From contig CAZYCQ010000015.1 in assembly GCA_964645535.1 (NCBI GenBank), forward strand, positions 443-53,891: a stretch of 53,449 nucleotides of DNA, given 5' to 3'. The DNA is from an uncultured archaeon (lineage in GTDB: Archaea > Asgardarchaeota > Heimdallarchaeia > Heimdallarchaeales > Kariarchaeaceae). Shown here piece by piece: positions 10,278 through 36,669 of this stretch; the first letter of the stretch is position 1, and the number at the start of each line of letters is the position of its first letter. The position numbers and the translations under genes were made by a program. The notes under the pieces were generated by a model that did no database searches, was not told where the DNA came from, and saw only the letters and a program-made list of their open reading frames with translations.

Positions 10278-10294
10278 ATGCTCACATGAACCCG

Positions 10295-10678
10295 TTATGT
10301 TATAGAGTTTGCGGAAACTTGCAAATCTCCTGAACCTGTGGCTTTGCACTCTAGCTTTCTTCTTCGCTGAAAATGCCTCAATAATTTGGTTAAGAGATCC
10401 AATATTGGTGGAAATGAGGCAACTTTCTGTAATACAATTCCCATTGGAAGGAGACCTGCTAGGCGGACAATGGCTTCTTTCTCGGAAAACCATTCCCCTT
10501 CAACAACTACATGAAAACTGGTCCAGTATTCTTCAAATCCAAGTTTTGAAATTCCTGCTTTCATAATCTGAGAATGGTGCATGGGTACAACAATTGCTGT
10601 CCTTCGAACCAGTGGACGAAGAAATTTTGAAAATTTAGTGCAGACCGAGCAATCATCATCGTAGGTAATAATATTCAC
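10295..10678 (-). CDS. DCC1-like thiol-disulfide oxidoreductase family protein (DUF393)
   Basis: N-terminal YDDDCSVC is the DxxCxxC family motif, followed by SFHVV..G and a size of about 127 aa. Confidence 0.8.
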   Translation of the reverse strand: MNIITYDDDCSVCTKFSKFLRPLVRRTAIVVPMHHSQIMKAGISKLGFEEYWTSFHVVVEGEWFSEKEAIVRLAGLLPMGIVLQKVASFPPILDLLTKLLRHFQRRRKLECKATGSGDLQVSANSIT

Positions 10679-13948: not shown

Positions 13949-15166
13949 TTGGTCGACAAATTGAATATGGTTCGTCCTCCATTCCATAATTGGTACCTTC
14001 CCTTATTCGGGTTCTTCTATTTTGGACAGGGATATTCACTAGGGTCTCTAGCATTGATGTTTCCAATTTACATCCGAGACGTTCTTGGAGTCGCCAGTGA
14101 GGCAAAAACGATATTCATCAGCTCAATGCTTCTTTTTCCTTGGTACTTGAAATTTGTTTATGGCTTCGTTTCAGACAATTTTCCCATTGGAAAGTTTGGA
14201 AGACGAAAGCCATATCTTGTCATTGCCGCCGTATTGAGCTTTTATGGATGGATCACACTGCTGTTGCACGAAAGCGTAAACATGGGTTTCATTTTAAGTT
14301 CACTTTCTCTTGCTTTTGGTTCTGCCATTTCAGACACTGTCATTGATGGTCTAGGGGTGGAGATAACCCCGAGATCATATGTTTCCCGTTTGCAGGGGAC
14401 TGCTTGGGGAGGAAGGGGCTTAGGCATAGGTATGGCGGGGATTGCCTCATCCTTACTTGTCAAATTATATGGCTGGGCCGCAATGATGGAGGTATCTGCT
14501 TTCTTCGGGATTTCAATGGTCTTGGTCGTTCTTATCCTTCCTGAAGGGAAAATGCTCGTAAACCCACTTCCCTCTCAATCGTTGAATCATATTCGACAAA
14601 TGCTGCTTCATCAGGAAGCCAGTGCCAAAATCTTTTACCTTTTGTTTTCTGGAGCATCATTGGCCATCATTCCCTTGTTCTCCTTCCTCCTCAACAACGA
14701 TTTTGACTATGATGTCGTGGATTTTTCCATTCCTTCCTTTTTCTTTGCCTTTGGGGCATTTCTCGGTTCATTCTTGATGGCCATCATTTTCATAAAGAAA
14801 GAAACAAAATTGCAAGTGGTCATAGTTCATGTAATTTATTCGGCTACACTATTCATTGGGATTTTCCACCTTAAATTTAGAAGTTTTCTACCGATTGAAG
14901 CTTATTTTGTGGCACTAGGCATCGGTGCAGGATTGGTTGAATCCTTCCAATTGAAAGTCATCCAAGAAATTTCTCCCCAAAGAATTGAAGGAACTGCATT
15001 TGCCATTTGGACAGGAATTTCCAACATCGGACAGTTCATTTTGGGAGGAATTCTTCTTAGCCAACTAGCTGATTTTTTCCGGTTGTCGTTCTTGGAGATT
15101 CTACAATTCTCTCATTTCTTCCTAATCCTTGCAGTCATTGCCTTATTCAAAATCAATAGACACTAA
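13949..15166 (+). CDS. MFS transporter (BT1/AmpG-like)
   Basis: FPWYLKFVYGFVSDNFPIGKFGRRKPY, DTVIDG, about 12 TM segments. Start codon uncertain (13949 or 13967). Confidence 0.85.
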   Translation: MVDKLNMVRPPFHNWYLPLFGFFYFGQGYSLGSLALMFPIYIRDVLGVASEAKTIFISSMLLFPWYLKFVYGFVSDNFPIGKFGRRKPYLVIAAVLSFYGWITLLLHESVNMGFILSSLSLAFGSAISDTVIDGLGVEITPRSYVSRLQGTAWGGRGLGIGMAGIASSLLVKLYGWAAMMEVSAFFGISMVLVVLILPEGKMLVNPLPSQSLNHIRQMLLHQEASAKIFYLLFSGASLAIIPLFSFLLNNDFDYDVVDFSIPSFFFAFGAFLGSFLMAIIFIKKETKLQVVIVHVIYSATLFIGIFHLKFRSFLPIEAYFVALGIGAGLVESFQLKVIQEISPQRIEGTAFAIWTGISNIGQFILGGILLSQLADFFRLSFLEILQFSHFFLILAVIALFKINRH

Positions 15167-16230
15167 GACAGCCTGCTTGCGATATAGTAATCCTCAGAAT
15201 CATCAAAACTGTCATGGATGACAATTGCGTCCCTCCGTTTAAGAGATACGATGACAAATATTACATTGAGTCCCTTTAAATTGGGATTCTTGTCCAGTCT
15301 GAGTGTTTTCAAGGTAGGAATGGCATCCAAATCCGGAATGTAGACCAAGTCATTGGCATCAAGGGTCAAAGTATCTAATGGAAGCTTAATAATTGACTTG
15401 GGGAGCTTTCGTATTTGATTCCTTGAGAGATATAGGTATTTCAGACTCTTGCATTCCCCGATGGCCTCTGGAATTTCTGTAATCTGATTGTCTTGTAACC
15501 ATAGCATTTCAAGACCTTCAAGAAAACCGATTGTGCTTGGGATATTGTGGATTTTATTGTTGTGTGCAAACAATTGCCATAGATGTTTGAGCAGACCTAT
15601 GGTTTCTGGAATTGTACTTATTTCATTATGTTGAATAAAGAGCTTTCGCAACTGTGAAAGACGATCAATGTCTTCTGGGAGACAAACGATCTCATTGTTC
15701 TGTAGATGCAGAATTCTGAGATTTATCAGATTGGTCAAACTTTTTGGCAGATATCTGATCCGGTTATAGGAGAGATCAAGCTCCTTAAGTTTTGTAAGGT
15801 TACCAATACACTCTGGAATTTCCCTTAACTGATTTTTTCCAAGGCTTAGATATTCCAGATTGGTCAATTCTCCTATGGATTCAGGAATATCAGTAAGACG
15901 GTTCGACGTGAAGCTCAATCGCTTGAGGTTTTTCAGGTTGCCGATCTCCTCTGGAATGCGAAAAATATAGTTGTTGGATACAAACAGGTGCTTCAATTTC
16001 CTTAACTCAAAAATTTCAGGAGGTAGGTCATTGATCCCGGTGAAGGAAAGATGGAGTCCCTCCAAATTTTCGAAGAGCCCAATTTCTTTGGGGATGCGTT
16101 TGATGTATCTGTCTGTCAATCGTAAATAGATAAGGTCGCCATTTTCATCGAACTGGGATCTTTCATAGGTTTTGACACTTCCCCTAATAGAACAACCTAA
16201 GGCACGTTCCAATTCGGCAACCTTTGACAT
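15163..16230 (-). CDS. Leucine-rich repeat protein (about 12 repeats of 23 aa)
   Basis: Repeated LxxLxLxxNxI/LxxIPxxIG units, e.g. LKRLSFTSNRLTDIPESIG and LKELDLSYNRIRYLPKSLT. Confidence 0.95.
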   Translation of the reverse strand: MSKVAELERALGCSIRGSVKTYERSQFDENGDLIYLRLTDRYIKRIPKEIGLFENLEGLHLSFTGINDLPPEIFELRKLKHLFVSNNYIFRIPEEIGNLKNLKRLSFTSNRLTDIPESIGELTNLEYLSLGKNQLREIPECIGNLTKLKELDLSYNRIRYLPKSLTNLINLRILHLQNNEIVCLPEDIDRLSQLRKLFIQHNEISTIPETIGLLKHLWQLFAHNNKIHNIPSTIGFLEGLEMLWLQDNQITEIPEAIGECKSLKYLYLSRNQIRKLPKSIIKLPLDTLTLDANDLVYIPDLDAIPTLKTLRLDKNPNLKGLNVIFVIVSLKRRDAIVIHDSFDDSEDYYIASRLS

Positions 16231-24584: not shown

Positions 24585-25016
24585 TTACAATTGCTGATAG
24601 TTCATCCCTTGCCTTGCTGCAATCTTATTCTTCACTCTCTCAAAGGTCAGAAGATTCTTGTCATCCTCCTGTATCTGTGTACTTATTCCCTTGAATGCGG
24701 TTGTAATGGCCTTTTTGGTTCCTGCGTAGCTCATCCTGTCTCTGACAGAGGATTCCATGGGCATCCAAAATAGGAACAGCATCCTAGTATCGTCCAAACC
24801 TACTCTGTTCTTGATTGGGAAATCATAGAGGACATATCTTGGTTCATTATCAGGGAGGCTTTCTATAAGATCATCAAAGCTGGCATCTGTTCTTTGTTCC
24901 AAAATAACCTTTCCTTCAGAAATCTTCAAGATCATTCCTTGCGGTTTTTTCTCAAATCTCATTTCTTCATATTCTTTGATGAGATCATCTGGGATTTCAA
25001 TTCCTGTAGTACTCAT
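24585..25016 (-). CDS. ADF/cofilin family actin-binding protein (single ADF-H domain)
   Basis: 143 aa, colinear with eukaryotic cofilins: MSTTGI (yeast MSRSGV), SFDDLIESLPDNEPRYVLYDF, MLFLFWMP, VRDRMSYAGTKKA (yeast VRSKMVYASSKDA), FKGISTQIQ. Confidence 0.9.
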   Translation of the reverse strand: MSTTGIEIPDDLIKEYEEMRFEKKPQGMILKISEGKVILEQRTDASFDDLIESLPDNEPRYVLYDFPIKNRVGLDDTRMLFLFWMPMESSVRDRMSYAGTKKAITTAFKGISTQIQEDDKNLLTFERVKNKIAARQGMNYQQL

Positions 25017-25044
25017 TATTCTCTTATCTGCTTAGGATTTATCC

Positions 25045-25107
25045 AATAAAAACTTTCTAGGGAGTAGAAAAGTTTTTTGGAGTTTGACTCATCCCTAACC
25101 TTAAAAA
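25045..25107. promoter_or_regulatory. Back-to-back archaeal promoters for cofilin (-) and RNase P RNA (+)
   Basis: Minus strand AGAAAG-TTTTTATT (BRE/TATA-like, 25058-25045) lies about 30 nt before the cofilin ATG. Plus strand TTAAAAA (25101-25107) lies about 25 nt before the RNA 5' end. Confidence 0.5.
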
Positions 25108-25129
25108 AATTCAAAACAAAACAACTATT

Positions 25130-25414
25130 GCAAGGAGTGAAGGTGATGGCTGGCGGACCTTTGGTCTGAGGAAAGTCCAGGCACCTCAAGGCAGGCGGTA
25201 CAGGGGTAACCCTGTCGGGTGAGAGCCCGGCTCTGATAACAGAAACGAACTTTTCCCTTTGGGAAATGCTGAGACGAATCATCACCGCCGGTGAAATTGC
25301 AAGCAGATCCTGATGAGTTGCCTTGTGAGGGATCGGGTAGCAAGAGAAGATGGATGCCATCAAACTCTGGCCAAATGGCGAGTTCACAAAACCTGGATTA
25401 CCTTCTCACCTTGC
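25130..25414 (+). ncRNA. rnpB: RNase P RNA, archaeal type A-like, compact (about 285 nt)
   Basis: CR-I GAGGAAAGTCCAGG (25168-25181) pairs with CR-V ACAAAACCTGGATTA (25386-25400) to form P4. Also P1 GCAAGG..GAAGGTGA / TTACCTTC..CCTTGC, P2 GATGGC/GCCATC, P7 GGCGGT/ACCGCC, GNRA-capped P8 and P9, CR-II ACAGAAACG, CR-III TGAGACG, and no P18. Locally GC-rich. Confidence 0.93.
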
Positions 25415-26086
25415 CTCTTCAAAACTCTTATAATGTTTCCGTGGTTTGAATGCCCCAGTTGTTGAAATCGGGAAACGGATAAATGCCTCTGCATCCTCAA
25501 CCTCGGCTTGTATGCCTCTCAGCTTGGTTCTTGTCCCATGGAATTTTGAATAAAATCCTTTCCCTCCTTTGTGTGATTGGGATTCATACCGTTTGATAGC
25601 TTGCAGACGTTTCTCATTGGTTTCAGAGATGTCAATGTACAATTCGGGAAAGGGTATTAGAACTGTGGTTTCCGCTCCGAAAACTGCATGGACTTGAAAG
25701 GCAGATTCTTCTGAAGTCGTGTGACTTGCCCATTCGACTGCCTCCAAGACCGCTTCATGGATTAACCGATGTTCTCTATGGTAATCGAAAGGAACGTGAG
25801 TGATGATAAAAGTTGGTTTATGAAGACGAATAGTCCTTACAATCTTCAAAATCACATCTTCGCGGTTATGTGGTCCCACCGAGGCAAATCCAAGACTGAT
25901 GGGTTCCACGCCCAAAATCTCGCAGGCATCTTTGAATTCCTGTTTTCTTTTGGAATCCTCCGTAACGGTGACTGCCCAAGCCTTTGATTTGCTACCATAT
26001 TTTGCAAGAGTCCCACCTGCGGAAAAGGTTTCATCATCTTGATGTGCAAAGACCGTCATAAGTGAAGGGAATTCCATAATGGTCAA
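25406..26086 (-). CDS. PIG-L/LmbE family de-N-acetylase, BshB-like
   Basis: AHQDDE metal motif, R..E...ACEILGV, HREH (HxDH variant), YESQ, RG....AEAF. The BshB role is inferred from nearby bshA/bshC. Confidence 0.8.
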   Translation of the reverse strand: MTIMEFPSLMTVFAHQDDETFSAGGTLAKYGSKSKAWAVTVTEDSKRKQEFKDACEILGVEPISLGFASVGPHNREDVILKIVRTIRLHKPTFIITHVPFDYHREHRLIHEAVLEAVEWASHTTSEESAFQVHAVFGAETTVLIPFPELYIDISETNEKRLQAIKRYESQSHKGGKGFYSKFHGTRTKLRGIQAEVEDAEAFIRFPISTTGAFKPRKHYKSFEEAR

Positions 26087-26175
26087 TAATCATTTTCTGT
26101 TTAAGTCCTTCTTTTCTCTTCCTAATTCCTGTTTCAATCCCACAAGAATTTAATTCTCTATTTCATAAATAGTTC

Positions 26176-28359
26176 GTGATTATTGAACTGGTTTCCTCGA
26201 AACTTGGGTTGGAAAATGAGGTTGTCAAAAATATCCAGGAACTTGTTGCATCAGGGGCAACCATACCATTTATTGCCAGATACAGGAAAGAAATGACTGG
26301 CTCACTTGATGAAACCAAGATACGCGAGGTGGTTCAGGAACTTGAACGAGCGAATACGTTAATGACCAGAAAGGAAAGAATCTTGAATTCGCTTGAAGAG
26401 AGGGGATTGCTGACTGAAGATCTGAAACGCTTGGTGGCGTCTTCCAAGACATTGGCAGAACTTGAAGCAGTCTATTCCCCGTATAAAACCACAAAAAAAA
26501 CATTGGCACAACAGGCACGAGAAAAAGGCATTGATGAACTGGTTAACATTATCCTTAAATCTCCTTCGAAAACCAAAGCATTGATCCAATCCTTTGCTGA
26601 AATGAAAAAATTGCCAGAAGAGGAGCTTGAAGAAGGTATTGTACATATTTTCGCAGAAACCATGGCCAATGACTATGATGCCAGACAACGTACTCTTTCC
26701 GTCTCAAAGATAAAAGGTTCTATCGCCAATAAAATTATCTCCCCCGAAAAAAGGAAAGCAAAAAAAGGATATGAAGGTCAAGAAAACAAGGAATCGAAAT
26801 TATGCAATGAGGATGTCATTGTCCCTCTCAGGAAAATTCTTCCACATCAGATCCAAGCGTTTCAAAAGGCGGAAAATAGAGGGCAAATACGGATCGTCTG
26901 GGATTTGCCTGAAACTGAGATACATGGGTTTCTAGTCAATGTCATCCAGTCAAAGGTTGGACGTATGGATCACAAACTTTCAGATCTTGTATCCCAAAGT
27001 GCAGTTTCCAGCTTCAAGAGGCTCGTGAAACCCAGTATTACACGACAAATTTATCGTGAGCTCATAGAAGTCGCGGAACAACATGCAATTAAGGTGTTTA
27101 CTTCCAACCTGCGAAAACTGCTGATGCAGCCTCCCTTAAAAGGTAAAAAAATAATGGGTCTGGATCCCGGTCTACGGACTGGCACCAAAGCGGCAATAAT
27201 TGATGAAAAGGGTGATGTTCTTTGGACAGGAACATTTGATACCTTGAGGTCAACCTACGCTTATGAAAAAATTCATGAGAAAGTGAATGAGTATGGCGTT
27301 GAGTTCATTGCATTAGGGAATGGCACCGGTTCGCGAGATGTTGAAGAAATAATAAAGAAAGTCATCAGCAATGCTTCATGCGACTATTCCATTGTTTCCG
27401 AAGCAGGGGCTTCCGTGTATTCAGCAAGTGAAATTGCCCAAGAAGAATTTCCTGAACTTGATGTGTCAATTCGTGGTGCCATCTCGATAGCACGACGATT
27501 GCAGGATCCTTTGGCCGAGCTTGTCAAGGTAGATCCTCGATCACTTGGTGTGGGACAGTATCAACATGATATTGATCAAAAGAAATTAAAGAAAGCTTTG
27601 GAAGATACTTTGGAAGAAGTAGTCAATCTCGTTGGGGTTGATGTAAATACTGCATCATGGCCATTGCTGTCCTATGTGGCTGGGCTTTCAAAGAGTACTG
27701 CCAAAAACATCATTGAATTCAGAAAAGAAAATGGCTCCATAAAAAGTCGAAATATGGTCCAGAAAATAAAGGGAATTGGTTCCAAAACATTTGAACAATG
27801 TGCAGGTTTTCTCAGGATTTTTAATGGTGAGAACCCCTTGGATTCAACCCCCATTCATCCCGAATCTTATAATATTGCCCAACAAATCTTGGATCGTTTG
27901 CAATTGAGTCTATCCGATCTCACAACGGATCGTTTCCACAACACACAGGTCAAGAAGTTTTTTTCAAAGTCGGAACTCGTTGAACTGGCCTCTTCCCTCA
28001 ATGTTGGTATTCCCACCCTCCTTGATATTCTGGATGCTCTTCAAAATCCCCTAAAAGACCCTCGAGGTGAATTCAGAAAGATTACCTTCGATCCAAAGGT
28101 CAAATCCATTGAGGATTTGGAACCCGGAATGGTTCTAAATGGAGAAGTAAGGAATGTCACTGATTTTGGTGCTTTTATTGACATTGGTGTCAAAAGGGAT
28201 GCATTGGTACACATTTCGCAACTGGCAGACAAATTCGTCAAGCATCCCAGTGACATTGTCTCTGTTGGAGATCGGGTTAGGGTTCGTATTCTCAAAGTTG
28301 ATGATGGCAGAATCTCGGGTTCCTTAAAAGGAATGGATCAACTCCAAAAAGAAAATTAG
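26176..28359 (+). CDS. tex: Tex family RNA-binding transcriptional accessory protein (YqgF, HhH and S1 domains)
   Basis: GATIPFIARYRKEMTGSLDE, GLDPGLRTG, GNGTGSR, SEAGASVYSAS, ARRLQDPLAELVK, GVGQYQHD, IHPESY and a C-terminal S1 domain (NVTDFGAFIDIG). Confidence 0.95.
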   Translation: MIIELVSSKLGLENEVVKNIQELVASGATIPFIARYRKEMTGSLDETKIREVVQELERANTLMTRKERILNSLEERGLLTEDLKRLVASSKTLAELEAVYSPYKTTKKTLAQQAREKGIDELVNIILKSPSKTKALIQSFAEMKKLPEEELEEGIVHIFAETMANDYDARQRTLSVSKIKGSIANKIISPEKRKAKKGYEGQENKESKLCNEDVIVPLRKILPHQIQAFQKAENRGQIRIVWDLPETEIHGFLVNVIQSKVGRMDHKLSDLVSQSAVSSFKRLVKPSITRQIYRELIEVAEQHAIKVFTSNLRKLLMQPPLKGKKIMGLDPGLRTGTKAAIIDEKGDVLWTGTFDTLRSTYAYEKIHEKVNEYGVEFIALGNGTGSRDVEEIIKKVISNASCDYSIVSEAGASVYSASEIAQEEFPELDVSIRGAISIARRLQDPLAELVKVDPRSLGVGQYQHDIDQKKLKKALEDTLEEVVNLVGVDVNTASWPLLSYVAGLSKSTAKNIIEFRKENGSIKSRNMVQKIKGIGSKTFEQCAGFLRIFNGENPLDSTPIHPESYNIAQQILDRLQLSLSDLTTDRFHNTQVKKFFSKSELVELASSLNVGIPTLLDILDALQNPLKDPRGEFRKITFDPKVKSIEDLEPGMVLNGEVRNVTDFGAFIDIGVKRDALVHISQLADKFVKHPSDIVSVGDRVRVRILKVDDGRISGSLKGMDQLQKEN

Positions 28360-28425
28360 AAAACTTTTATACCTTGAAAATAAACTACTTCCTGTCATCG
28401 AAGATAGTCTAGGAGATGCCCATCC

Positions 28426-30600
28426 ATGATGAGTGAACGAACCGAACTCTCCCTTCCGGGATATTACAAATTTATATTTGAAGCCATCCCAGAAAATGAT
28501 AAAGAAAGTTTCATGATTACATGGGAAAGACTTGACCTTACCAATGACCCCTATGTTGATTTAGCGAATGCCATCAGGGAAACCCTGAAGGTCTGGAAAA
28601 AACCTCATCCTCTTTGGCTTTATATCCTTTCTAGAATTACCTTTACTCAATCCGACTACAAGGGTCTAGAATCTTTATACGAGAGATATCCAAATGATGA
28701 CAGCACTAAACTCTATATGGCACGGTTGAAAATCTATCAGACTCAATTCGAAGCTGCAAGAAAACTTTGTGAGGAAATCATGCTTAGAATCGATCTAGAT
28801 CGAGAAAGTACACTCATTGATGCGGTTCTCCTACTAGACACCTTGTTCACCCTTGGTTTAATTGAGATTTACACTAGGAATTTTGAAAGGGCATCTGAAA
28901 TCATTCAAGAGTATGAAAACTGGACTGACCAACATAAGGTCAAAAAATGGATTCCTCGAGAAGAATTTGCTAGTTTTCTTATTCCTCCATATCTTTTGCG
29001 TGCATTAAGTGCATTATATACAGGGCATTTTGAACAGCTTTCTTCAACGATCCATGAAGTCAAAAATTGGTTTGATGGGGTGAATGACCTCTGGTATCGT
29101 GGATTTTACCTGAACCTTTCAGGAATCTCCAACATCATGGCCAATGATGTCAAAAAAGGAATCGATGATCTTCAAGAGGCATTGAATTGCTATCGGATTT
29201 TGAAAGATCGGAGAGACTATTCTGTAGTCGGTGCCAATCTTGCAGTTACATTGATCTTGCAAGGAAGAAGATCTCAAGGAAGGGAAGTTCTTGAATCTCT
29301 TCTAGATCCTCTTGAAGAACTCCAAAACTATATTTTGGCTCTTACGCATACTCTTTTGGTAAGTAAAATCTATATGGACGAACGAAAATTCAACAAGGCC
29401 CAGCAACTTCTCAATCGGGCCGAAAAATTGGCGAAGAAAACCGAAATCAAGGAACCTGCCACATTTGCATACTTTGCCATCCTGCATTCAAGGCTTCGCA
29501 ATACTGAAAGGGCTGAATTTTACAACAAAAGGCTCAAATCCATGGTTGATCCGGAATTTCTCGACTTCAAGGGAGACATCAAAATACCTGAAAGAAAGCA
29601 GGGAAAGGACTTTTACACCCTTATTTGGTACCTCAATGCCACATCAATTCAATCCATGGTTGAGGGCAACCTTAAGGAATCCTATTCCATCCTGACTAAG
29701 GCATTGGAAATTGCAGAAAAAGAAAATATGTATGATTCGGTACTAGAGCTTTCCACCGTTTTTGTTGAAGTGATTCTCAAACGGCATCTGGTTGAAGCGG
29801 ATCAAAAATACCTTCGAGAGGCAATCGATGTGATTGCTGATTTGCGACCACTGATACTTCAAATTGAGAATCCATATTATAACACCTTGATTTTTCTGAC
29901 ACAAATCTATATTTTAATCGCTTTAGATGAAATATCTGCCGCTCAAAACTTGGCGGATGAAGTTCAAGATCTGTATTTGGCTACTGCCAGTGATCTAAGT
30001 GGTGATCAGTCATATGAGCTTGAATTGGTTACCAAGAGACTTGCTTCCCTTTCAGGACCACGACGGCCAGAAGAAGAGGAAATTGGCTTGAATGTCTGGT
30101 TCTTGGGAAATTCATATTACCGTCAAGTTGCCACGTTAGAGGCCATTCGGTTAATCAATGATTTACAGATGCAACAGAGTGCCATTGGTGAAAAGCCGAA
30201 AGAAGTCAATGTCAGACCCTCCATGATCCTTCTCTCTAAATCCACCGGGCAAAGTATCTTCTCCATCAAACTCAATGAGGATGACAATATTGATGATCAG
30301 CTTGTTTCTGCCTTACTTATGGCGATTTCCTCATTCTCAAAGGAAGTACTTGGTGGAGGATCACTGAATAAGATTGAACAAGAAGGTCATATCCTTCTTC
30401 TAGAGCATATTTCCAATGGATACACTGCGGTTATTGTTGTAAACGAGGATTCCTACTCCCTCCGTAAGAAGTTCAAGAGGCTCGTAAATGAACTCAAAAT
30501 GCTCAGGATTACTGAATATTTTGAAGTCGAGACTCTTCTCTCTCCTGGTGATCCTCAATACGAATTGATCCGTGGCATTATTGAAGATATTTTCAATTAA
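28426..30600 (+). CDS. TPR-like helical repeat protein with C-terminal longin/roadblock-like domain
   Basis: Long alpha-helical repeat region. The C-terminal GQSIFS...DDQLVSALLMAISSFSKEVL...LLLEH pattern is typical of Asgard longin-like domains. Confidence 0.7.
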   Translation: MMSERTELSLPGYYKFIFEAIPENDKESFMITWERLDLTNDPYVDLANAIRETLKVWKKPHPLWLYILSRITFTQSDYKGLESLYERYPNDDSTKLYMARLKIYQTQFEAARKLCEEIMLRIDLDRESTLIDAVLLLDTLFTLGLIEIYTRNFERASEIIQEYENWTDQHKVKKWIPREEFASFLIPPYLLRALSALYTGHFEQLSSTIHEVKNWFDGVNDLWYRGFYLNLSGISNIMANDVKKGIDDLQEALNCYRILKDRRDYSVVGANLAVTLILQGRRSQGREVLESLLDPLEELQNYILALTHTLLVSKIYMDERKFNKAQQLLNRAEKLAKKTEIKEPATFAYFAILHSRLRNTERAEFYNKRLKSMVDPEFLDFKGDIKIPERKQGKDFYTLIWYLNATSIQSMVEGNLKESYSILTKALEIAEKENMYDSVLELSTVFVEVILKRHLVEADQKYLREAIDVIADLRPLILQIENPYYNTLIFLTQIYILIALDEISAAQNLADEVQDLYLATASDLSGDQSYELELVTKRLASLSGPRRPEEEEIGLNVWFLGNSYYRQVATLEAIRLINDLQMQQSAIGEKPKEVNVRPSMILLSKSTGQSIFSIKLNEDDNIDDQLVSALLMAISSFSKEVLGGGSLNKIEQEGHILLLEHISNGYTAVIVVNEDSYSLRKKFKRLVNELKMLRITEYFEVETLLSPGDPQYELIRGIIEDIFN

Positions 30601-31124
30601 TCTTCTCCATAAAGTTCATCCATGAATTCTTTCTGTAGTCTAACCACTTCTTTTGAATCAGTTGCTCTAGAATACGCATCCAACCTGTCATAATTCAAAT
30701 CAATGAATGTCTGACCGTATTTGAATGCCTTGGCTATTCTTGTTGCATCCTGCTCAAATCCCAAGATCCAAAGCGCTGAAATTATGGCTTCTGCCGTATT
30801 TAATTTGGTGGGTTTCCCAAAATTAACAGTGTTCGCGGCAACAAGAAAAGGAAGTGCTCGAGGTGTGCCGAGTGAGAAGAGGGAATACAGTGTGTCTATC
30901 TGATTCCAACTTCCATCAATGCCTACAAGGCCAAATTCCGCGAAAATGTCGCGATCACTGGGTGAAAGGGCGATTGACGTAGTTGGTGAGAGGACAATGG
31001 CCTTCTTTATTGCCTGTTTCCGTATCCGTTTGGCAAAACCTAGCTTCAATAAACGATGCCCAGAACACTTTTTGATGTCACATTGATTCAAATATATGAT
31101 TTTGATTTTAGAAAGTGGATCCAT
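30597..31124 (-). CDS. tsr3: SSU rRNA aminocarboxypropyltransferase Tsr3
   Basis: QCDIKKCSG, LSPSD, DGSW, RALPFLVAANTVNFGKPTKLNTAEA, FKYGQTFIDLN. Start likely ATG 31124 (track 31151). Confidence 0.93.
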   Translation of the reverse strand: MDPLSKIKIIYLNQCDIKKCSGHRLLKLGFAKRIRKQAIKKAIVLSPTTSIALSPSDRDIFAEFGLVGIDGSWNQIDTLYSLFSLGTPRALPFLVAANTVNFGKPTKLNTAEAIISALWILGFEQDATRIAKAFKYGQTFIDLNYDRLDAYSRATDSKEVVRLQKEFMDELYGED

Positions 31125-31127
31125 TAC

Positions 31128-31143
31128 CATGATTGCAATCATG
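31128..31143. promoter_or_regulatory. Perfect 16-bp palindrome CATGATTGCAATCATG, candidate operator between tsr3 and bshA
   Basis: Self-complementary and in a divergent promoter region. A near-identical copy lies at 41941-41956. Confidence 0.5.
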
Positions 31144-31225
31144 ATGGTCATAAAAACATTTTACCTTTCTCCCAAGGCATTGGGTGGGAAGCCCAAATTT
31201 TTATCTATTTGGAATTGAATTCTGA

Positions 31226-32329
31226 TTGTTGAGAATTGGAATTGTAGGCTATCCCACTTTAGGTGGAAGTGGGATGGTTGCTGCTTCTTTGGCAAAGGAA
31301 TTGGCCAAAAGAGGATTTGAGGTTCATTTTTTCTCTTACAAGATTCCATTTCCCATGGTTGATGATCCCCACATTTCCAACTTCCATTTTCATCGCGTGA
31401 ATCTGGAAACATATCCCCTTTTTCGAGAAACAGGAATGAATTATGGATTTCAACTTGCAAGTTGCCTGCTTAAGGTAGCAAGAACAAAGACTTTGGACTT
31501 AATCAATACGCACTATGCAATTCCCCATGCGATGAGTGCAGTGCTTGCCAGAATCGAAACAGGGATTCCCGTAGTAAATACCCTTCATGGTTCAGATGTA
31601 CATACCCTTGGAAATTCTCCCAGCTTCAAGGAAACATTGCGTATGGTTCTAAAGAGAGCACGAACGACAGCAGTATCTGGTTTTCTTGCAAACATGGCCA
31701 AGGATGTTTTCGAATTGGATAGGTCTCCAAAGGTGATCTACAATTTTGTTGATGCCAATAAATTCACACCGAAAAAGGAAAAAGAAAACCTTACAATTGT
31801 TGCAGCCGGAAATTTTCGCCCAGTGAAAAACTTTCCTTTTCTTGTCGAATGTTATGCGGAATTGGCCAAGGAATATCCTGACTGGAAATTACGTATGATT
31901 GGTGATGGGCCTGAACGCCCTCTTTGCTTCAAAATTGCCATGAAACTGGATATTGCTGACCATGTGGAATTTATCCCTCCCACCAAAGACATTCCTTCTG
32001 AATTTGCCAACGCTTCTATCTTGGCGGCTCCAAGCAAAACTGAATCCTTCGGATTAACCATTGCAGAAGGCATGTCTTCAGGACTTCCGATTTGGGCTTC
32101 TAATGTGGGAGGAATTCCAGAGGTCTGTATTGATGGAGAAAACGGGCTTTTGTTCAACCCCCAAAACAAGAAAGAAGGTGTTGAAAAGCTGAGAATTTTG
32201 ATGGATGATCCCACTTTACGTTCAAAACTAGGTTCTGCGTCCAGACAACGAATTATAAAGCATTTTCATCCCGATAAAATCTTGTTAGATTATATTGAAG
32301 AGTTTAAGACCGCTCTTGATTCTTCATAG
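31226..32329 (+). CDS. bshA: N-acetyl-alpha-D-glucosaminyl L-malate synthase (GT4), bacillithiol step 1
   Basis: BshA-specific motifs IGIVGYPTLGGSGMVA, HYAIPHA, TLHGSDV, VIYNFVD, NFRPVK, GDGPE and ESFGL. Confidence 0.88.
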   Translation: MLRIGIVGYPTLGGSGMVAASLAKELAKRGFEVHFFSYKIPFPMVDDPHISNFHFHRVNLETYPLFRETGMNYGFQLASCLLKVARTKTLDLINTHYAIPHAMSAVLARIETGIPVVNTLHGSDVHTLGNSPSFKETLRMVLKRARTTAVSGFLANMAKDVFELDRSPKVIYNFVDANKFTPKKEKENLTIVAAGNFRPVKNFPFLVECYAELAKEYPDWKLRMIGDGPERPLCFKIAMKLDIADHVEFIPPTKDIPSEFANASILAAPSKTESFGLTIAEGMSSGLPIWASNVGGIPEVCIDGENGLLFNPQNKKEGVEKLRILMDDPTLRSKLGSASRQRIIKHFHPDKILLDYIEEFKTALDSS

Positions 32330-33902
32330 GACAAGAACCTGAACCTCCTCCTCCTGGTGTCTGGATGATCAGACGATCTCCTTTTTTGCCTTCTGCACTT
32401 GCTCTTCCTCCTAATGGAATTTCTTTTCCATCGGTCTTAACCAATATATTCCTGCCCGGTTGCCCGTCTCCCCCTCCAAAAATTCCCCATGGCCTGAATT
32501 TTCTTCTTTCTGTCTGCAAGGAAACTGTCGTTTCTTCCCTGAATTCGATTTCCCTAACAATCCCATCCCCTCCTTTTCTTTTGCCGTCCCCTCCGGTTCC
32601 TCTACAGATTTCATATCTCCTGACGATCAATGGAAACTGCATCTCCAATGCCTCGATCGGCGTGTTTTCTGTGTTTGTCATGTGGCATTGGATCGCTGAG
32701 GTTCCATCTTGTAAGCAAGTGGCGCCGGAGCCACCACCGATCGTCTCATAAATGGTCCAATTTGTCCCGCGAACAGTTCCTCCCAAAAGAATGTTGTTCA
32801 TGGTTCCTTGTGACGCGGCGGGGAGCCACGGAATTAATTTACCCAATGCACCCAGTACAACATCTACAATCCTTTGACTGGTTTCTGTATTGGCACTTGA
32901 AGTGGCCGCCCTAAAATCGGGATTAACTACGCATCCTTTTGGTGCATGGATCCTAACAGGTTTAAAGCATCCCCAATTTGTCGGAACATCTCTCCCTGTA
33001 AGAAGACGAATGACATAGTAAACCCCAGCAGTAGTGATTGAAAATGGTGCATTGACATTTCCTTTAGTCTGCGGATCGCTTCCAGAAAAATCAAAGGAAA
33101 TGGTGTTGTCATCATTGATGATGACCTTACAACAAATTTTCACAGGTTTGTCCGAAATTCCATCGGAATCTAAATAATCCTCGAAAAAAGCTTCTCCTTT
33201 GGGAAATTCTGCGATTTTTTCTCTTGTACCCCGTTCCGAATCCGCAAATAACCGTTCATGGAGTTTTTCAATATCTGCAAATTCTCCCAATTCCAGAAGT
33301 TCAGAAAGCCTTCTGACACCAAGCATCAATGCACCATATTGGGCATTAAGATCTCCCTTTCGTTCCATAGGTGTTCTGACATTTTCCAAAATGAGCTCCA
33401 TTACATCTTGGTTTATCTTTCCTTTTCTGAACAACCTGATTGGTGGAATTATCAATCCTTCTTGATAGACTTCCGTGGAATGAGGTGGAAGTGAACCCGG
33501 CACCATCCCACCAATATCCGCATGATGGGCTCGATTTGCAACGATATATTTCAATTCCCCCTTATGGAAAACTGGTGCGAGAAGAGAAACATCTGGTAGA
33601 TGGGTTCCACCAAATTCTGATCTTGGTGAATTCACGACTATTGCATCTCCTTCTTCCCATTTTCCCTGAAACTTTTCCAATATTGGCTTTGCCACAAACC
33701 CCATGGATCCTAAATGGACTGGGATTGCTTCCGCTTGAGCCACGAGCCTTGCCTGTGCATCAAATATGGCACAGGAAAAATCCGCCCTTTCCTTGATATT
33801 CGGTGAATATGCCGTTTTTCTCAATACTTTTGCCATCTCTTCCGCAATTCCTTCAAGTCTGTTTTGGAAAACAGTTAATGTAATGGGATCTGGATTTGCC
33901 AC
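32304..33902 (-). CDS. hyuB: Hydantoinase B / 5-oxoprolinase subunit
   Basis: TAYSPNIKERADFSCA, IPVHLGSM, GGTHLPD, HHADIGG, QGTMNN, YETIGGG, HMTNT, TPGGGG. Confidence 0.94.
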   Translation of the reverse strand: MANPDPITLTVFQNRLEGIAEEMAKVLRKTAYSPNIKERADFSCAIFDAQARLVAQAEAIPVHLGSMGFVAKPILEKFQGKWEEGDAIVVNSPRSEFGGTHLPDVSLLAPVFHKGELKYIVANRAHHADIGGMVPGSLPPHSTEVYQEGLIIPPIRLFRKGKINQDVMELILENVRTPMERKGDLNAQYGALMLGVRRLSELLELGEFADIEKLHERLFADSERGTREKIAEFPKGEAFFEDYLDSDGISDKPVKICCKVIINDDNTISFDFSGSDPQTKGNVNAPFSITTAGVYYVIRLLTGRDVPTNWGCFKPVRIHAPKGCVVNPDFRAATSSANTETSQRIVDVVLGALGKLIPWLPAASQGTMNNILLGGTVRGTNWTIYETIGGGSGATCLQDGTSAIQCHMTNTENTPIEALEMQFPLIVRRYEICRGTGGDGKRKGGDGIVREIEFREETTVSLQTERRKFRPWGIFGGGDGQPGRNILVKTDGKEIPLGGRASAEGKKGDRLIIQTPGGGGSGSCPMKNQERS

Positions 33903-33957
33903 AAATCAATCTTTGAAACCTACAATAAAAGTTGATATAGAGGTCGCCGGTTTTCCG

Positions 33958-34872
33958 TCAAGCAAGATTCAAAATCTTTCCCAAACGTTCTGCATCTTCC
34001 AATGCCCGGTCTAATGATTTTTCTCCTTTTATTACGTCTCCTAGGGCGAATATTTGCGGATGGCTGGTTTGGTATTCATTTACTTCCACATGACCTGTGG
34101 GGTCAAGTTTAAGTAGATCCCTGAAGAGTTCAGTAGACGGCTGAGGTTCTCCTTCAATGAAAACCACCTGCACGTCTAGATTCTTTTCCACTTCTCCTTG
34201 CATGAACTTAACTCCTTCAACTACATCTGACCCATAGATTTCAATATCCTGGACGCTATTGAAAATTTCAACGTTGTCAAGTTTCATTAGGGCTTGGAAA
34301 TGAGGATTTTGTTCTGGAAGGTCATGTTCCAACCAAAGGACATTGACCTTTTTTACTATATTGGCAATATATCTGGCACTCTTCAAGGTATATTTGTGAT
34401 TGCCCACAATTGCAGCATGCCTTCCTCTAAAGAGGTTTGCATCACAAACTGCGCAGTCTGAAACTCCCTTGTGGAAAAATTCTTTTTCACCTTTGAACCC
34501 GAAGGACTGCTGATGAGCCCCCGTTGCAATTATTAGAAATTTAGCATGGAAATCAACCATTTTGGTCTTGACAAGTAGATATTCTCCTTCCTCTTTTACC
34601 GCTATCGCCTTGCTTGATCGATGCTTAGCGCCAGCAGCCTTAGCTTCCTTTAATGCATTTTCGATCCATTTCATTCCTTTGGTGTCTTTAGCTATCCTTT
34701 TCGAATCCTCTATGATTCCCGCCTTGGCGATTTGTGAATCATAGGGACTGCCTAAAATATACACATCCTTTCCATTTGCCGCAAGAATTTTACCTAATGT
34801 TAATCCGGATACACCTGCTCCCATGATCAAATAATCTGTCTGAATTGGCTCCTGAACAGGCTTTGCAAACAT
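33958..34872 (-). CDS. Thioredoxin-reductase-like flavoprotein with atypical NAD(P)H site
   Basis: FAD motif GAGVSG, IATGA, redox motif GVSDCAVCD, FALGDV. The usual GGGxxA is replaced by GNHKYT. Confidence 0.82.
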   Translation of the reverse strand: MFAKPVQEPIQTDYLIMGAGVSGLTLGKILAANGKDVYILGSPYDSQIAKAGIIEDSKRIAKDTKGMKWIENALKEAKAAGAKHRSSKAIAVKEEGEYLLVKTKMVDFHAKFLIIATGAHQQSFGFKGEKEFFHKGVSDCAVCDANLFRGRHAAIVGNHKYTLKSARYIANIVKKVNVLWLEHDLPEQNPHFQALMKLDNVEIFNSVQDIEIYGSDVVEGVKFMQGEVEKNLDVQVVFIEGEPQPSTELFRDLLKLDPTGHVEVNEYQTSHPQIFALGDVIKGEKSLDRALEDAERLGKILNLA

Positions 34873-35025
34873 ACCAAGATTTCTCTAGAGGCTAAATAAT
34901 CCTATTGGAATTGCTTCATCTTATGAATTAACAATTGATCAAAAATAAATCAATTTACGATTCTGTTCTTTTTTTTTTGAAGACAGGTTGTACCTCCACC
35001 ATCGTTATTAAAAGGAAATCGAAAA

Positions 35026-36669
35026 TTGATGGGTATGGAAAATGAGCCTACAGGGCTAAACCCAAATGTGCTCTATGATTTGGCCGTTCTTGGTCAAGAA
35101 ACCCAAGCTGCTGAACGATTTTGGGGACCTATCCCTCCCACCTTAGGTGAACTCCAGAATTATGTTGACAATACCCCCAATCACCATCCTGATATTGAAC
35201 AATTGAAAAATAAACTGGTTGAATTCCACAAAAACCTTGGAATTTTCTCTCCAAAAGTTGAACAGCATCTCAATTATTTATCAAATGGGTCAATTCTTGC
35301 AGGGCAGCAACCTGTCATTCTTGGCGGACCTGGATTCATAGCAAACAAGTTGGGTCTTTTGGCCGCAATGACACGCAATCTTAAAGATTCGGGTCATCAA
35401 TTTGCCCCTGTCTTCATGATCGGTGATTATGATGGATTGCAAAAAGAATTGGGACGAACATATTTTCCCAATCCAATTTCTGGACATGCTACAATTCTTG
35501 ATTCGGAACATGTTCTCGATTTTCCTGAAGAAACTGCAATCCATACCGTAGACATTCCTGATGAGGAATGGTTGGTTGAAACCCTCCATCTTATCGATGG
35601 CTCTTTCAGAGGATTCAAAAAACAGGTCAAGGATATTTCCAAGCGAAAAATTCTAGATGAACGATGGGATCATATCCAGACTTTTCTAAGACTACTGCAT
35701 TTTCAGTCAGAAAAATTTCCTGATTTCTTTGCACGAATATGGGGAACAATTGCAAACAAAATAAACGACTATGGGATAATCTTTCTTCCTACATCCTTCC
35801 CAGAAATCCGTAAGCTATATGTTCCCGCCTTGTATTCACTGATGACTGCTCAGAAACAGTATGTGGAAACATTCAACCGTACTTACGACGAGCTTATCAA
35901 GCTCGGTTACGCACCAACTCTACCAAAACGGAACCACCATTATCTCCCAGTATATTTTGAATGTCCCTGTACTGATTTTCGTGTATCCCTTGAACTTTAC
36001 TACAGGGAGGGGAGACCTATAGCTGCAGGTGAGTGCAAGAACTGTGGTCATACCGTAGAAATTCCATTGGATGACATCTCCCATCTGGAAGAAAACGCAA
36101 GCAGAATTGGTCTCAGAGTCGATTCTTCACAAATTGCCTTTCAAGATCTATTGAACATCAAAATCAGAATATCTGGTCCCGGGGAGATTGCCTATTATTC
36201 CGTTGTAGCCCCTTCCCTCAAGAAATCTGGTTTTAAACTTCCCGTATTCTTCAAATACAAACGTGCCTTCTATAATTCTCCTTGGATTGAAAAACTTGGA
36301 AAATTACTTCAACAACGAAAACAACCCACTCTCCATACAGACAAACTTTTTGTTCTGTTGAAAAACCGGATACAGGCAATCCGCAATAAGGATCCAAACC
36401 TTTGGAGCACCACAGAAATTGAACTGAAAAAATTTATTGAGGCACAATATTCTGGTCTTCTCAAATATGAACAAAAACTGGATGCTCAAAAATATCTTGC
36501 ATGGATGTTTGGGCGGTTTACTCCTCACAAATTTGGTCAGGAAGTGTCTTGGACTTGGATTGATATGGCTCTTCAAACAGGTCTTTCTGATTATATTCCT
36601 ACCTATGAAAGAATGTACCATCCATTTTCCAAACCAGGTCTATTCCATTTCATAAATACAACACTTTGA
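35026..36669 (+). CDS. bshC: BshC-like protein (putative cysteine-adding enzyme of bacillithiol synthesis), divergent
   Basis: ILAGQQPVILGGP...ANK (BshC: GQQxxLxxGP...K), PVFMIGDYD (BshC: PVFW..EDHD), SGPGEIAYY (BshC: GGPGExAYW); similar length (about 545 aa). Confidence 0.72.
   Translation: MMGMENEPTGLNPNVLYDLAVLGQETQAAERFWGPIPPTLGELQNYVDNTPNHHPDIEQLKNKLVEFHKNLGIFSPKVEQHLNYLSNGSILAGQQPVILGGPGFIANKLGLLAAMTRNLKDSGHQFAPVFMIGDYDGLQKELGRTYFPNPISGHATILDSEHVLDFPEETAIHTVDIPDEEWLVETLHLIDGSFRGFKKQVKDISKRKILDERWDHIQTFLRLLHFQSEKFPDFFARIWGTIANKINDYGIIFLPTSFPEIRKLYVPALYSLMTAQKQYVETFNRTYDELIKLGYAPTLPKRNHHYLPVYFECPCTDFRVSLELYYREGRPIAAGECKNCGHTVEIPLDDISHLEENASRIGLRVDSSQIAFQDLLNIKIRISGPGEIAYYSVVAPSLKKSGFKLPVFFKYKRAFYNSPWIEKLGKLLQQRKQPTLHTDKLFVLLKNRIQAIRNKDPNLWSTTEIELKKFIEAQYSGLLKYEQKLDAQKYLAWMFGRFTPHKFGQEVSWTWIDMALQTGLSDYIPTYERMYHPFSKPGLFHFINTTL

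What the first reader, a model, noticed from the sequence alone, without database searches (positions are those of the whole stretch)
25406..36669. Dispersed but complete bacillithiol-type (BshA/BshB/BshC) thiol pathway in an archaeon
Seen: a BshA with family-specific motifs (31226-32329), a PIG-L deacetylase (25406-26086) and a BshC-like protein (35026-36669), all within about 11 kb but in separate transcription units. Known: BshA makes GlcNAc-malate, BshB deacetylates it and BshC adds cysteine to give bacillithiol, a low-molecular-weight thiol characterised in bacteria (Firmicutes, Deinococcus, and N-methylated in Chlorobi). Inference: this archaeon makes bacillithiol or a variant as its redox buffer. 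Other thiol-redox genes in the window fit: a TrxR-like gene head-to-head with bshC, a DCC DxxCxxC protein and a glyoxalase-II-like hydrolase.
Basis: partly seen in the sequence, partly recalled or inferred. Interest (0 to 1): 0.85.

Follow-up and report, generated by a model that had tools for sequence, protein, structure and literature searches.

The report
Archaeal bacillithiol-type thiol pathway, dispersed
This Heimdall-type Asgard archaeon carries all three genes of a divergent archaeal form of the bacterial pathway for the protective thiol bacillithiol, plus a matching disulfide-reductase gene elsewhere in its genome; the idea has been in print since 2020 and nobody has yet detected the compound in any archaeon.

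Summary
BshA (31226-32329) passes NCBI's curated BshA cut-off. The PIG-L deacetylase (25406-26086) and the BshC-like gene (35026-36669) fall far below the BshB and BshC cut-offs, but other evidence ties them to the pathway. The BshC-like model matches B. subtilis BshC along its whole length (Z 33.5). The PIG-L is the ortholog of the deacetylase that sits beside bshA and bshC in other Asgard lineages and in Bathyarchaeia. In 301 Asgard genomes the three genes occur in the same families. This genome holds a loosened copy of a normally tight cluster.

The genome also has a YpdA/Bdr ortholog above its cut-off. That is rare in the phylum (9 of 301 genomes), and the protein contains no cysteine. No bacilliredoxins were found.

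The archaeal BshC branch carries a four-cysteine ribbon that canonical BshC lacks.

Most likely the organism makes bacillithiol or a close derivative. This is unproven.

It is not new as an idea. A 2020 review listed BshA and BshC hits in Asgard, NCBI names such proteins BshC, and this scan has reported the same gene set on other genomes (notes on Thor-type and Heimdall-type archaea).

The parts
31226..32329 (+). bshA: GT4 UDP-GlcNAc:L-malate N-acetylglucosaminyltransferase (step 1)
   Evidence: TIGR03999 297.7 bits against a cut-off of 273.7, and the only match over the cut-off in the genome. The best solved relatives are all BshA: 2jjm/3mbo, 5d00, 6n1x, E 1e-58 to 1e-51. The GGSG, HYAIPHA, TLHGxD, NFRxVK, ESFGL and GGIPE motifs align. 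It groups with the other archaeal BshAs inside the bacterial BshA radiation.
25406..26086 (-). PIG-L/LmbE-family zinc deacetylase, the archaeal counterpart of BshB (step 2)
   Evidence: PF02585 66.7 bits. It is below the BshB1/B2 cut-offs and is the weakest of the genome's four PIG-L paralogs against BshB1. Even so, it is the ortholog (34-59% identity) of the PIG-L next to bshA/bshC in other Asgard families and in Bathyarchaeia; the other three paralogs match those genes at 22-31% in all but one locus (L039), which carries the other PIG-L type. It has the same family distribution as BshA and BshC-like. Its best solved relatives are BshB1 (2ixd, 6p2t), with AHxDD, RK(E/Q)E and HxxH aligned.
35026..36669 (+). 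archaeal-type bshC: BshC-fold putative cysteine-adding enzyme with a four-cysteine ribbon insert (step 3)
   Evidence: PF10079 51.6 bits against 27; TIGR03998 only 66.4 against 265.8. A profile of 31 homologs hits only BshC 4wbd in the PDB, E 8e-17. The AF2 model has pLDDT 94.3. Foldseek top hit is 4wbd, E 8.7e-21, TM 0.68. VIA-align gives Z 33.5, rmsd 2.6 A over 448 residues, against Z 21.3 for class I LysRS. The G(Q/H)QP and GPGE motifs are shared with canonical BshC. The protein's only four cysteines form C-x-C...C-x2-C.
33958..34872 (-). TrxR-like flavoprotein (CAVC, no NADPH motif), head-to-head with bshC; a candidate accessory reductase whose role is inferred only
   Evidence: TIGR01292 159.7 bits against 343. 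It has CAVC at 140-143 and 'GNHKYT' in place of GGGxxA. The same divergent pairing with bshC-like is found in Heimdall-type loci L027-L033 and L037.

Best explanation
The window encodes a complete archaeal version of the bacillithiol (BSH) pathway, spread over 11 kb.

- Step 1: BshA transfers GlcNAc from UDP-GlcNAc to L-malate.
- Step 2: the PIG-L zinc deacetylase removes the acetyl group to give GlcN-malate.
- Step 3: the BshC-fold enzyme adds cysteine to the free amine.

The step-3 chemistry is unknown even for bacterial BshC. The oxidised thiol would be recycled by the YpdA/Bdr flavoenzyme encoded on another contig. The TrxR-like gene beside bshC may also take part.

The gene families, the fold, the clustering in relatives and the co-occurrence are shown here. 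The malate acceptor, cysteine as the added amino acid, and the product acting as a redox buffer are inferred from homology.

In most other Asgard and Bathyarchaeia genomes the three genes are adjacent. Here other genes separate them.
For: - BshA passes the curated equivalog cut-off, and its closest solved relatives are all BshA.
- The archaeal BshAs nest within bacterial BshA diversity.
- The BshC-like model matches BshC 4wbd from end to end at Z 33.5, well above the aaRS hits, and shares its two most conserved motifs.
- In 43 archaeal loci, BshA is next to BshC-like in about 40 and the window-type PIG-L lies within about 2 kb in about 35. The same holds in fetched Asgard loci of two other families, f11 and f17.
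- The census of 301 Asgard genomes, given as BshA / BshC-like / window-type PIG-L: f1 10/10, 9/10, 10/10; f2 28/29, 27/29, 29/29; f11 71/76, 67/76, 69/76; f17 17/19, 17/19, 16/19; f14 2/68 (weak hits only), 0/68, 0/68.
- The PIG-L catalytic motifs are kept, and its best solved relatives are BshB1.
- The YpdA/Bdr ortholog scores 376 bits against a cut-off of 339.9, in an archaeal gene context, and is present in 3 of 3 genomes of the genus.
- In Bathyarchaeia a DinB/MST-superfamily gene (the thiol S-transferase superfamily) sits next to bshA in 21 loci.
- This genome has several DinB-family genes.
- GC content of the region matches the rest of the window, so nothing suggests a recent island.
Against: - The BshC-like and PIG-L proteins score far below the curated BshC and BshB cut-offs: 66 against 266 bits and 61 against 182 bits.
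- BshC-like is only about 15% identical to B. subtilis BshC and carries an extra Cys4 ribbon.
- No BrxA/B or BrxC was found, in a genome that is 89% complete.
- The YpdA ortholog has no cysteine at all. It has Val where S. aureus has Cys14, and one study found Cys14 necessary (PMC6591457). A structural study argues that Cys14 is buried and is replaced in non-Firmicute YpdAs (bioRxiv 10.1101/2020.12.02.408641).
- YpdA was found in only 9 of 301 Asgard genomes, so most carriers of the pathway lack it.
- BSH has never been detected in an archaeon (PMC7278568).
- The BshC reaction has never been reconstituted, even for the bacterial enzyme (PMC5790435).
Confidence: 0.72

Rival explanations
1. The three enzymes make a related but different compound. 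It could be a GlcN-glycoside with another aglycone or another amino acid, or a further modified BSH. On this reading the archaeal BshC and BshB branches have a changed specificity.
For: Two of the three enzymes fail their equivalog cut-offs. The Cys4 ribbon is specific to the archaeal BshC branch. Bathyarchaeia add a conserved Amidohydro_2 gene inside the cluster. Bacilliredoxins were not found. YpdA is rare among the genomes that carry the pathway.
Against: BshA, the enzyme that chooses the aglycone, passes the BshA equivalog cut-off. It keeps the motifs of its N-terminal (acceptor-side) domain, aligned to B. anthracis BshA, and it sits inside the BshA radiation. A YpdA ortholog above its cut-off is present here.
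Confidence: 0.2
2. The GT4 and PIG-L genes serve glycolipid or cell-surface glycan synthesis, such as GlcN-containing lipids, and the BshC-like protein has an unrelated aaRS-like role.
For: PIG-L and GT4 families also act in GlcNAc-PI-type pathways. The window PIG-L is the weakest BshB1 match of four paralogs.
Against: The three-gene linkage and co-occurrence hold across two archaeal phyla. BshA passes its equivalog score. The PIG-L's best solved relatives are BshB1. A DinB/MST-type gene neighbours the cluster in Bathyarchaeia.
Confidence: 0.05
3. The three genes are functionally unrelated and lie within 11 kb by chance.
For: They are in separate transcription units, with unrelated genes between them.
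Against: Their orthologs are adjacent in most other genomes and share one phyletic pattern.
Confidence: 0.03

Closest known systems
Bacterial bacillithiol biosynthesis: BshA, BshB1/BshB2, BshC (Bacillus subtilis, B. anthracis, Staphylococcus aureus, Deinococcus, Thermus)
   Same: The same three enzyme families in the same logical order. BshA meets the equivalog model. BshC-like has the 4wbd fold and the GQQ and GPGE motifs. The PIG-L keeps the zinc and catalytic motifs of BshB1. bshA and bshC co-occur, which is how bshC was first found in bacteria (PMC5790435).
   Different: BshC-like is about 15% identical to B. subtilis BshC, fails TIGR03998 and carries a Cys4 ribbon. The deacetylase belongs to a distinct PIG-L subfamily that fails TIGR04001 and TIGR04000. 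No Brx genes were found. The host is an Asgard archaeon.
Canonical bshC-bshB1-bshA cluster in another family of the same Asgard class (f6, for example locus L022)
   Same: Same phylum and class, and the same three steps, clustered.
   Different: There BshC scores 375-389 bits, above the cut-off, and has no Cys ribbon. The PIG-L there is nearer a different PIG-L paralog of this genome (L008, which scores higher against BshB1), and the window-type PIG-L was not found. So two versions of the pathway exist within Asgard.
YpdA/Bdr bacillithiol disulfide reductase (S. aureus, B. cereus, B. subtilis)
   Same: The ortholog on contig C29 passes TIGR04018 (376 bits against 339.9), with FAD and NADPH GxGxxG motifs present.
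   Different: It has no cysteine. Val replaces the Firmicute Cys14 (GAGPVG against GGGPCG). It is restricted to this family and its sister family within the phylum.
Mycothiol pathway (MshA, MshB, MshC)
   Same: The same logic: a GT4 transferase, a PIG-L-family deacetylase, then an aaRS-like cysteine ligase.
   Different: The MshA, MshB and Mca models score far lower than the Bsh models (72.5, 23 and 27 bits). The third enzyme here has the BshC fold, not a CysRS-like MshC.

Membership tests
BshA (NCBIfam TIGR03999, equivalog) | Whole-protein HMM score at or above the curated cut-off of 273.7 bits | tested here: met
   297.7 bits and 297.2 bits in the genome search, where it is the only match over the cut-off.
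BshA (NCBIfam TIGR03999, equivalog) | GT4 GT-B architecture, with BshA-type motifs aligned to solved BshA | tested here: met
   Glyco_transf_4 plus Glycos_transf_1. Full-length alignment to 2jjm at E 8e-59, with GGSG, HYAIPHA, TLHGxD, NFRxVK, ESFGL and GGIPE.
BshA (NCBIfam TIGR03999, equivalog) | Uses L-malate as acceptor | not testable with these tools
   This needs an enzyme assay. The papers that list the malate-contact residues were not held.
BshB1 / BshB2 (TIGR04001 / TIGR04000) | HMM score at or above the curated cut-off (182.5 / 195.25 bits) | tested here: not met
   61.2 and 57.7 bits. The three other PIG-L paralogs in the genome score higher (76-102 bits) but are also below the cut-off.
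BshB1 / BshB2 (TIGR04001 / TIGR04000) | PIG-L/LmbE fold with zinc and catalytic motifs (AHxDD ... HxxH) | tested here: met
   PF02585 66.7 bits. AHQDD, RKQE and HREH align to BshB1 2ixd and 6p2t.
BshB1 / BshB2 (TIGR04001 / TIGR04000) | Genomic linkage and co-occurrence with bshA and bshC | tested here: met
   Its orthologs are adjacent to bshA/bshC in f11, f17, Heimdall and Bathyarchaeia loci. Its phyletic pattern matches.
BshC (TIGR03998; Pfam PF10079; PDB 4wbd) | Equivalog HMM score at or above 265.8 bits | tested here: not met
   66.4 bits, covering profile positions 30-273 only.
BshC (TIGR03998; Pfam PF10079; PDB 4wbd) | BshC N-terminal Rossmann-like domain (Pfam gathering score 27) | tested here: met
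   51.6 bits. All 34 homologs carry PF10079.
BshC (TIGR03998; Pfam PF10079; PDB 4wbd) | Full-length BshC fold | tested here: met
   Against 4wbd: Foldseek E 8.7e-21, TM 0.68. VIA-align Z 33.5, rmsd 2.6 A, 448 aligned residues, model 10-544 against chain 12-539; the next hit is LysRS-I at Z 21.3.
BshC (TIGR03998; Pfam PF10079; PDB 4wbd) | Adds cysteine to GlcN-malate | not testable with these tools
   The reaction has not been reconstituted in vitro even for bacterial BshC (PMC5790435).
YpdA/Bdr (TIGR04018) | HMM score at or above 339.9 bits | tested here: met
   376 bits for L011:1489-2535.
YpdA/Bdr (TIGR04018) | Cys14 in GGGPCG (the Firmicute enzymes) | tested here: not met
   The motif reads GAGPVG, and the protein has zero cysteines. 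The structural preprint says this Cys is replaced outside Firmicutes.
Bacilliredoxins BrxA/B (TIGR04191) and BrxC/YtxJ (TIGR04019) | Any match in the genome | tested here: not met
   No match at E <= 0.001 in a genome that is 89.4% complete.

The most novel reading that the evidence does not exclude
The Cys4-ribbon BshC branch and its dedicated PIG-L subfamily, shared by most Asgard lineages and many Bathyarchaeia, define a distinct archaeal low-molecular-weight thiol system. Its product would be a BSH derivative rather than BSH itself. In Heimdall-type genomes its disulfide would be reduced by the NADPH-motif-less TrxR-like flavoprotein that is conserved head-to-head with bshC, using ferredoxin or another donor. 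If so, the archaeal lineage closest to eukaryotes would rely on a sugar-cysteine thiol and not on glutathione.
Probability: 0.2. Interest if true: 0.75.

Novelty: new variant of a known kind. Interest (0 to 1): 0.45.

Why it matters
No sugar-cysteine thiol has been measured in any archaeon, and the main redox buffer of Asgard archaea is unknown. This gene set gives a concrete, testable candidate.

The literature disagrees on the point. A 2020 review lists BshA and BshC hits in Asgard (PMC7278568). A 2025 survey of RefSeq found no archaeon with the full pathway (PMC12719100). The likely reason is that the archaeal BshB and BshC are too divergent for its BLAST thresholds and that most of these genomes are MAGs.

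- the deacetylase, identified through cluster orthology;
- the spread of the same cluster to Bathyarchaeia, with a DinB-type neighbour;
- a cysteine-free YpdA in this family;
- a zinc-ribbon-like insert in the archaeal BshC branch.

A second, divergent BshC lineage may also help with the open question of what BshC uses to activate cysteine.

Tried and rejected
- I looked for the malate-contact residues of BshA in the structural papers (PMC5954418, PMC2943542, PMC6511738). None is held, so acceptor specificity was judged only from the equivalog score and aligned motifs.
A later try worked.
- I took the ORF at 25016-25387, next to the PIG-L gene, for the DCC protein. It has no family match and lies opposite the RNase P RNA. 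The DCC1-like ORF is elsewhere.
- tblastn with the Bathyarchaeia DinB protein found nothing in this genome or in the Asgard loci. The family HMMs did find DinB-type genes in this genome, but none is near the bsh genes.
- BrxA/B and BrxC were not found.
- NmbA (N-methylation of BSH) was not tested, because no reference sequence or family model was at hand.
- The BshA tree is a quick LG+G4 search with very long outgroup branches. The node that unites all archaeal BshAs has SH-aLRT of only 39, so I claim no donor or direction of transfer.
- Whether the Cys4 ribbon lies near the active site could not be measured, because model coordinates are not readable in the script box.
Full report
**What is in the window.**
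- BshA (31226-32329, +) scores 297.7 bits on the curated equivalog model TIGR03999, whose cut-off is 273.7. It is the only match over the cut-off in the 3.6-Mb genome.
- Its five best solved relatives are all BshA enzymes: 2jjm/3mbo, 5d00, 6n1x and 6d9t, at E 1e-58 to 1e-51. The alignment is full length and covers the GGSG, HYAIPHA, TLHGxD, NFRxVK, ESFGL and GGIPE motifs.
- The PIG-L protein (25406-26086, -) passes Pfam PF02585 but reaches only 61 and 58 bits on BshB1 and BshB2, whose cut-offs are 182.5 and 195.25.
- The BshC-like protein (35026-36669, +) passes Pfam PF10079 (51.6 bits against 27) but reaches only 66 bits on TIGR03998, whose cut-off is 265.8.

One of the three is therefore a clear family member. 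The other two needed further tests.

**The BshC-like protein.**
- A search of 5.8 billion proteins returned 34 homologs, all carrying PF10079. Those with names come from Heimdallarchaeota (LC_2) or Kariarchaeaceae, and NCBI already calls some of them BshC.
- A profile of 31 of them hits only BshC 4wbd in the PDB, at E 8e-17.
- An AlphaFold2 model built on that alignment is very confident, with pLDDT 94.3 and pTM 0.93.
- Foldseek ranks 4wbd first at E 8.7e-21 and TM 0.68-0.69.
- VIA-align gives Z 33.5 and rmsd 2.6 A over 448 residues, spanning model 10-544 and chain 12-539. Class I LysRS follows at Z 21.3, and other class I aaRS score about 11.
- The two most conserved motifs, G(Q/H)QP and GPGE, are shared with canonical BshC.

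One difference stands out. The protein's only four cysteines form C-x-C ... C-x2-C in a beta-rich insert. Other Asgard families and Bathyarchaeia have C-x4-C ... C-x2-C at the same place. A sister family (f2) keeps only two of the four. Canonical BshC has none.

**Which deacetylase.** The genome has four PIG-L paralogs, and the window copy is the weakest match to BshB1. Gene context nevertheless picks it.
- In fetched loci of two other Asgard families (f11, f17), a PIG-L lies directly beside bshA and bshC. It is 35-40% identical to the window protein and 22-25% identical to the other three paralogs.
- In 43 archaeal loci found with the BshC-like profile, BshA is adjacent to BshC-like in about 40, and the window-type PIG-L lies within about 2 kb in about 35.
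- Its best solved relatives are BshB1 (2ixd, 6p2t), with AHxDD, RK(E/Q)E and HxxH aligned.

**Co-occurrence.** I searched the same 301 genomes of the phylum with all three queries. The three columns are BshA, BshC-like and window-type PIG-L.

| Family | BshA | BshC-like | PIG-L |
|---|---|---|---|
| f1 (own family) | 10/10 | 9/10 | 10/10 |
| f2 | 28/29 | 27/29 | 29/29 |
| f11 | 71/76 | 67/76 | 69/76 |
| f17 | 17/19 | 17/19 | 16/19 |
| f14 | 2/68 (weak only) | 0/68 | 0/68 |
| f5 | 2/21 (weak) | 3/21 (weak) | 0/21 |

One family of the same class (f6) instead has a canonical cluster. Its BshC scores 375-389 bits. Its PIG-L is nearest a different PIG-L paralog of this genome (L008, which scores higher against BshB1). 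It has no window-type PIG-L. The co-occurrence test is passed, and there are two versions of the pathway within the phylum.

**Layout here.** In this genus the cluster is loosened.
- PIG-L lies 5.1 kb from bshA, with Tex, a TPR gene and TSR3 between them.
- bshA and bshC are separated by a hydantoinase-B gene and a TrxR-like gene.
- The same order is seen in a genome of the same genus and in close Heimdall-type MAGs.
- GC content is even across the region.

**Accessory genes.**
- A YpdA/Bdr ortholog lies on contig C29 (376 bits against 339.9), next to an Lrs14/Sta1-type archaeal regulator.
- Such orthologs were found in only 9 of 301 genomes, all in f1 and f2. The 2020 review counted two in all archaea (PMC7278568).
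- The protein has no cysteine, and GAGPVG replaces the Firmicute GGGPC14G.
- One study found that BSSB reduction depends on Cys14 (PMC6591457). A structural study found Cys14 buried about 8 A from FAD and replaced in YpdAs of other phyla (bioRxiv 10.1101/2020.12.02.408641). This is a caveat, not a refutation.
- BrxA/B and BrxC were not found in a genome that is 89% complete.
- In Bathyarchaeia the cluster is PIG-L, Amidohydro_2 and BshC-like, convergent with BshA and a DinB/MST-superfamily gene. DinB is present in 21 loci and the amidohydrolase in 16.
- DinB proteins include bacillithiol and mycothiol S-transferases, so this neighbour supports a thiol product.
- This genome has several DinB-family genes elsewhere.

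**Evolution.** In a quick tree of 130 BshA sequences with two outgroup GT4 paralogs:
- The 29 Bathyarchaeia sequences form one clade (SH-aLRT 99).
- The Heimdall-type sequences form one clade (96).
- All 52 archaeal sequences sit together inside the bacterial radiation. That node has support of only 39, and the outgroup branches are long.

This fits membership in the BshA family. It does not settle where the archaeal genes came from.

**Novelty.**
- Rawat and Maupin-Furlow (2020, PMC7278568) reported 39 archaeal InterPro hits each for BshA and BshC, mostly in Asgard, and proposed that archaea may make BSH. They did not analyse BshB.
- A 2025 paper found no archaeon in RefSeq with the full pathway, using BLAST thresholds of E < 1e-20, identity above 25% and coverage above 80% (PMC12719100).
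- No held paper links bacillithiol with Bathyarchaeia or Heimdallarchaeia by name.
- This scan has reported the same gene set on other genomes, including the zinc-ribbon BshC branch.

So the core idea is published. The archaeal BshB and BshC branches are a variant of the known system. What this window adds is the dispersed layout and the YpdA ortholog.

**Verdict.** The product is still unproven. Interest is moderate.

Noticed in passing
window 25133-25411 (+): Archaeal RNase P RNA (RF00373, 142.3 bits against a gathering score of 84). Its 3' end overlaps the stop of the PIG-L gene by 6 nt. The 123-aa ORF at 25016-25387 (-) is therefore spurious.
   Followed up: yes
window 33958-34872 (-), with loci L027-L033 and L037: A TrxR-like flavoprotein with CAVC but no NADPH GGGxxA motif. 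It is head-to-head with bshC-like here and in most Heimdall-type loci (34-63% identity). It is a possible dedicated reductase for the thiol system in lineages that lack YpdA.
   Followed up: partly
window 32304-33902 (-) and 8298-10493 (-): The hydantoinase/oxoprolinase B and A subunit genes are 22 kb apart. The B gene keeps its synteny with the TrxR-like gene and bshC in several Heimdall-type relatives (L027, L028, L030, L032, L033, L036). Whether that link is functional is unknown.
   Followed up: partly
G000:C29:33056-34018 (L011:1489-2535, +): The YpdA/Bdr ortholog has no cysteine at all (GAGPVG in place of GGGPCG). It could serve to test whether Cys14 matters for BSSB reduction.
   Followed up: partly
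Loci L040-L068 (Bathyarchaeia): A conserved five-gene block: PIG-L, Amidohydro_2 (about 325 aa) and BshC-like, convergent with BshA and a DinB/MST-type gene. Two loci have a Thioredoxin_9 protein between bshC and bshA. The amidohydrolase has no counterpart in the bacterial pathway.
   Followed up: partly
L022 (G229:C90) and other f6 genomes: One family of the same Asgard class carries a canonical BshC above the cut-off (375-389 bits), a different type of PIG-L and a high-scoring BshA (405-423 bits), all clustered. This is a second version of the pathway within the phylum.
   Followed up: partly
window 24585-25016 (-): A cofilin/ADF-family actin-binding protein (PF00241, 87 bits), a eukaryote-like signature gene typical of Asgard archaea.
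   Followed up: no
window 26176-28359 (+): A Tex/Spt6-like protein (Tex_N, YqgF-like, HHH and S1 domains) in an archaeal genome, divergent from the PIG-L gene.
   Followed up: no
window about 10355-10669 (-): A DCC1-like thiol-disulfide oxidoreductase ORF (PF04134, 31.9 bits against 27.8). It overlaps the annotated 5' end of the hydantoinase A ORF, so that gene probably starts further downstream.
   Followed up: no
window 15163-16230 (-): A 355-aa protein made almost entirely of leucine-rich repeats (LRR_8, LRR_14).
   Followed up: no
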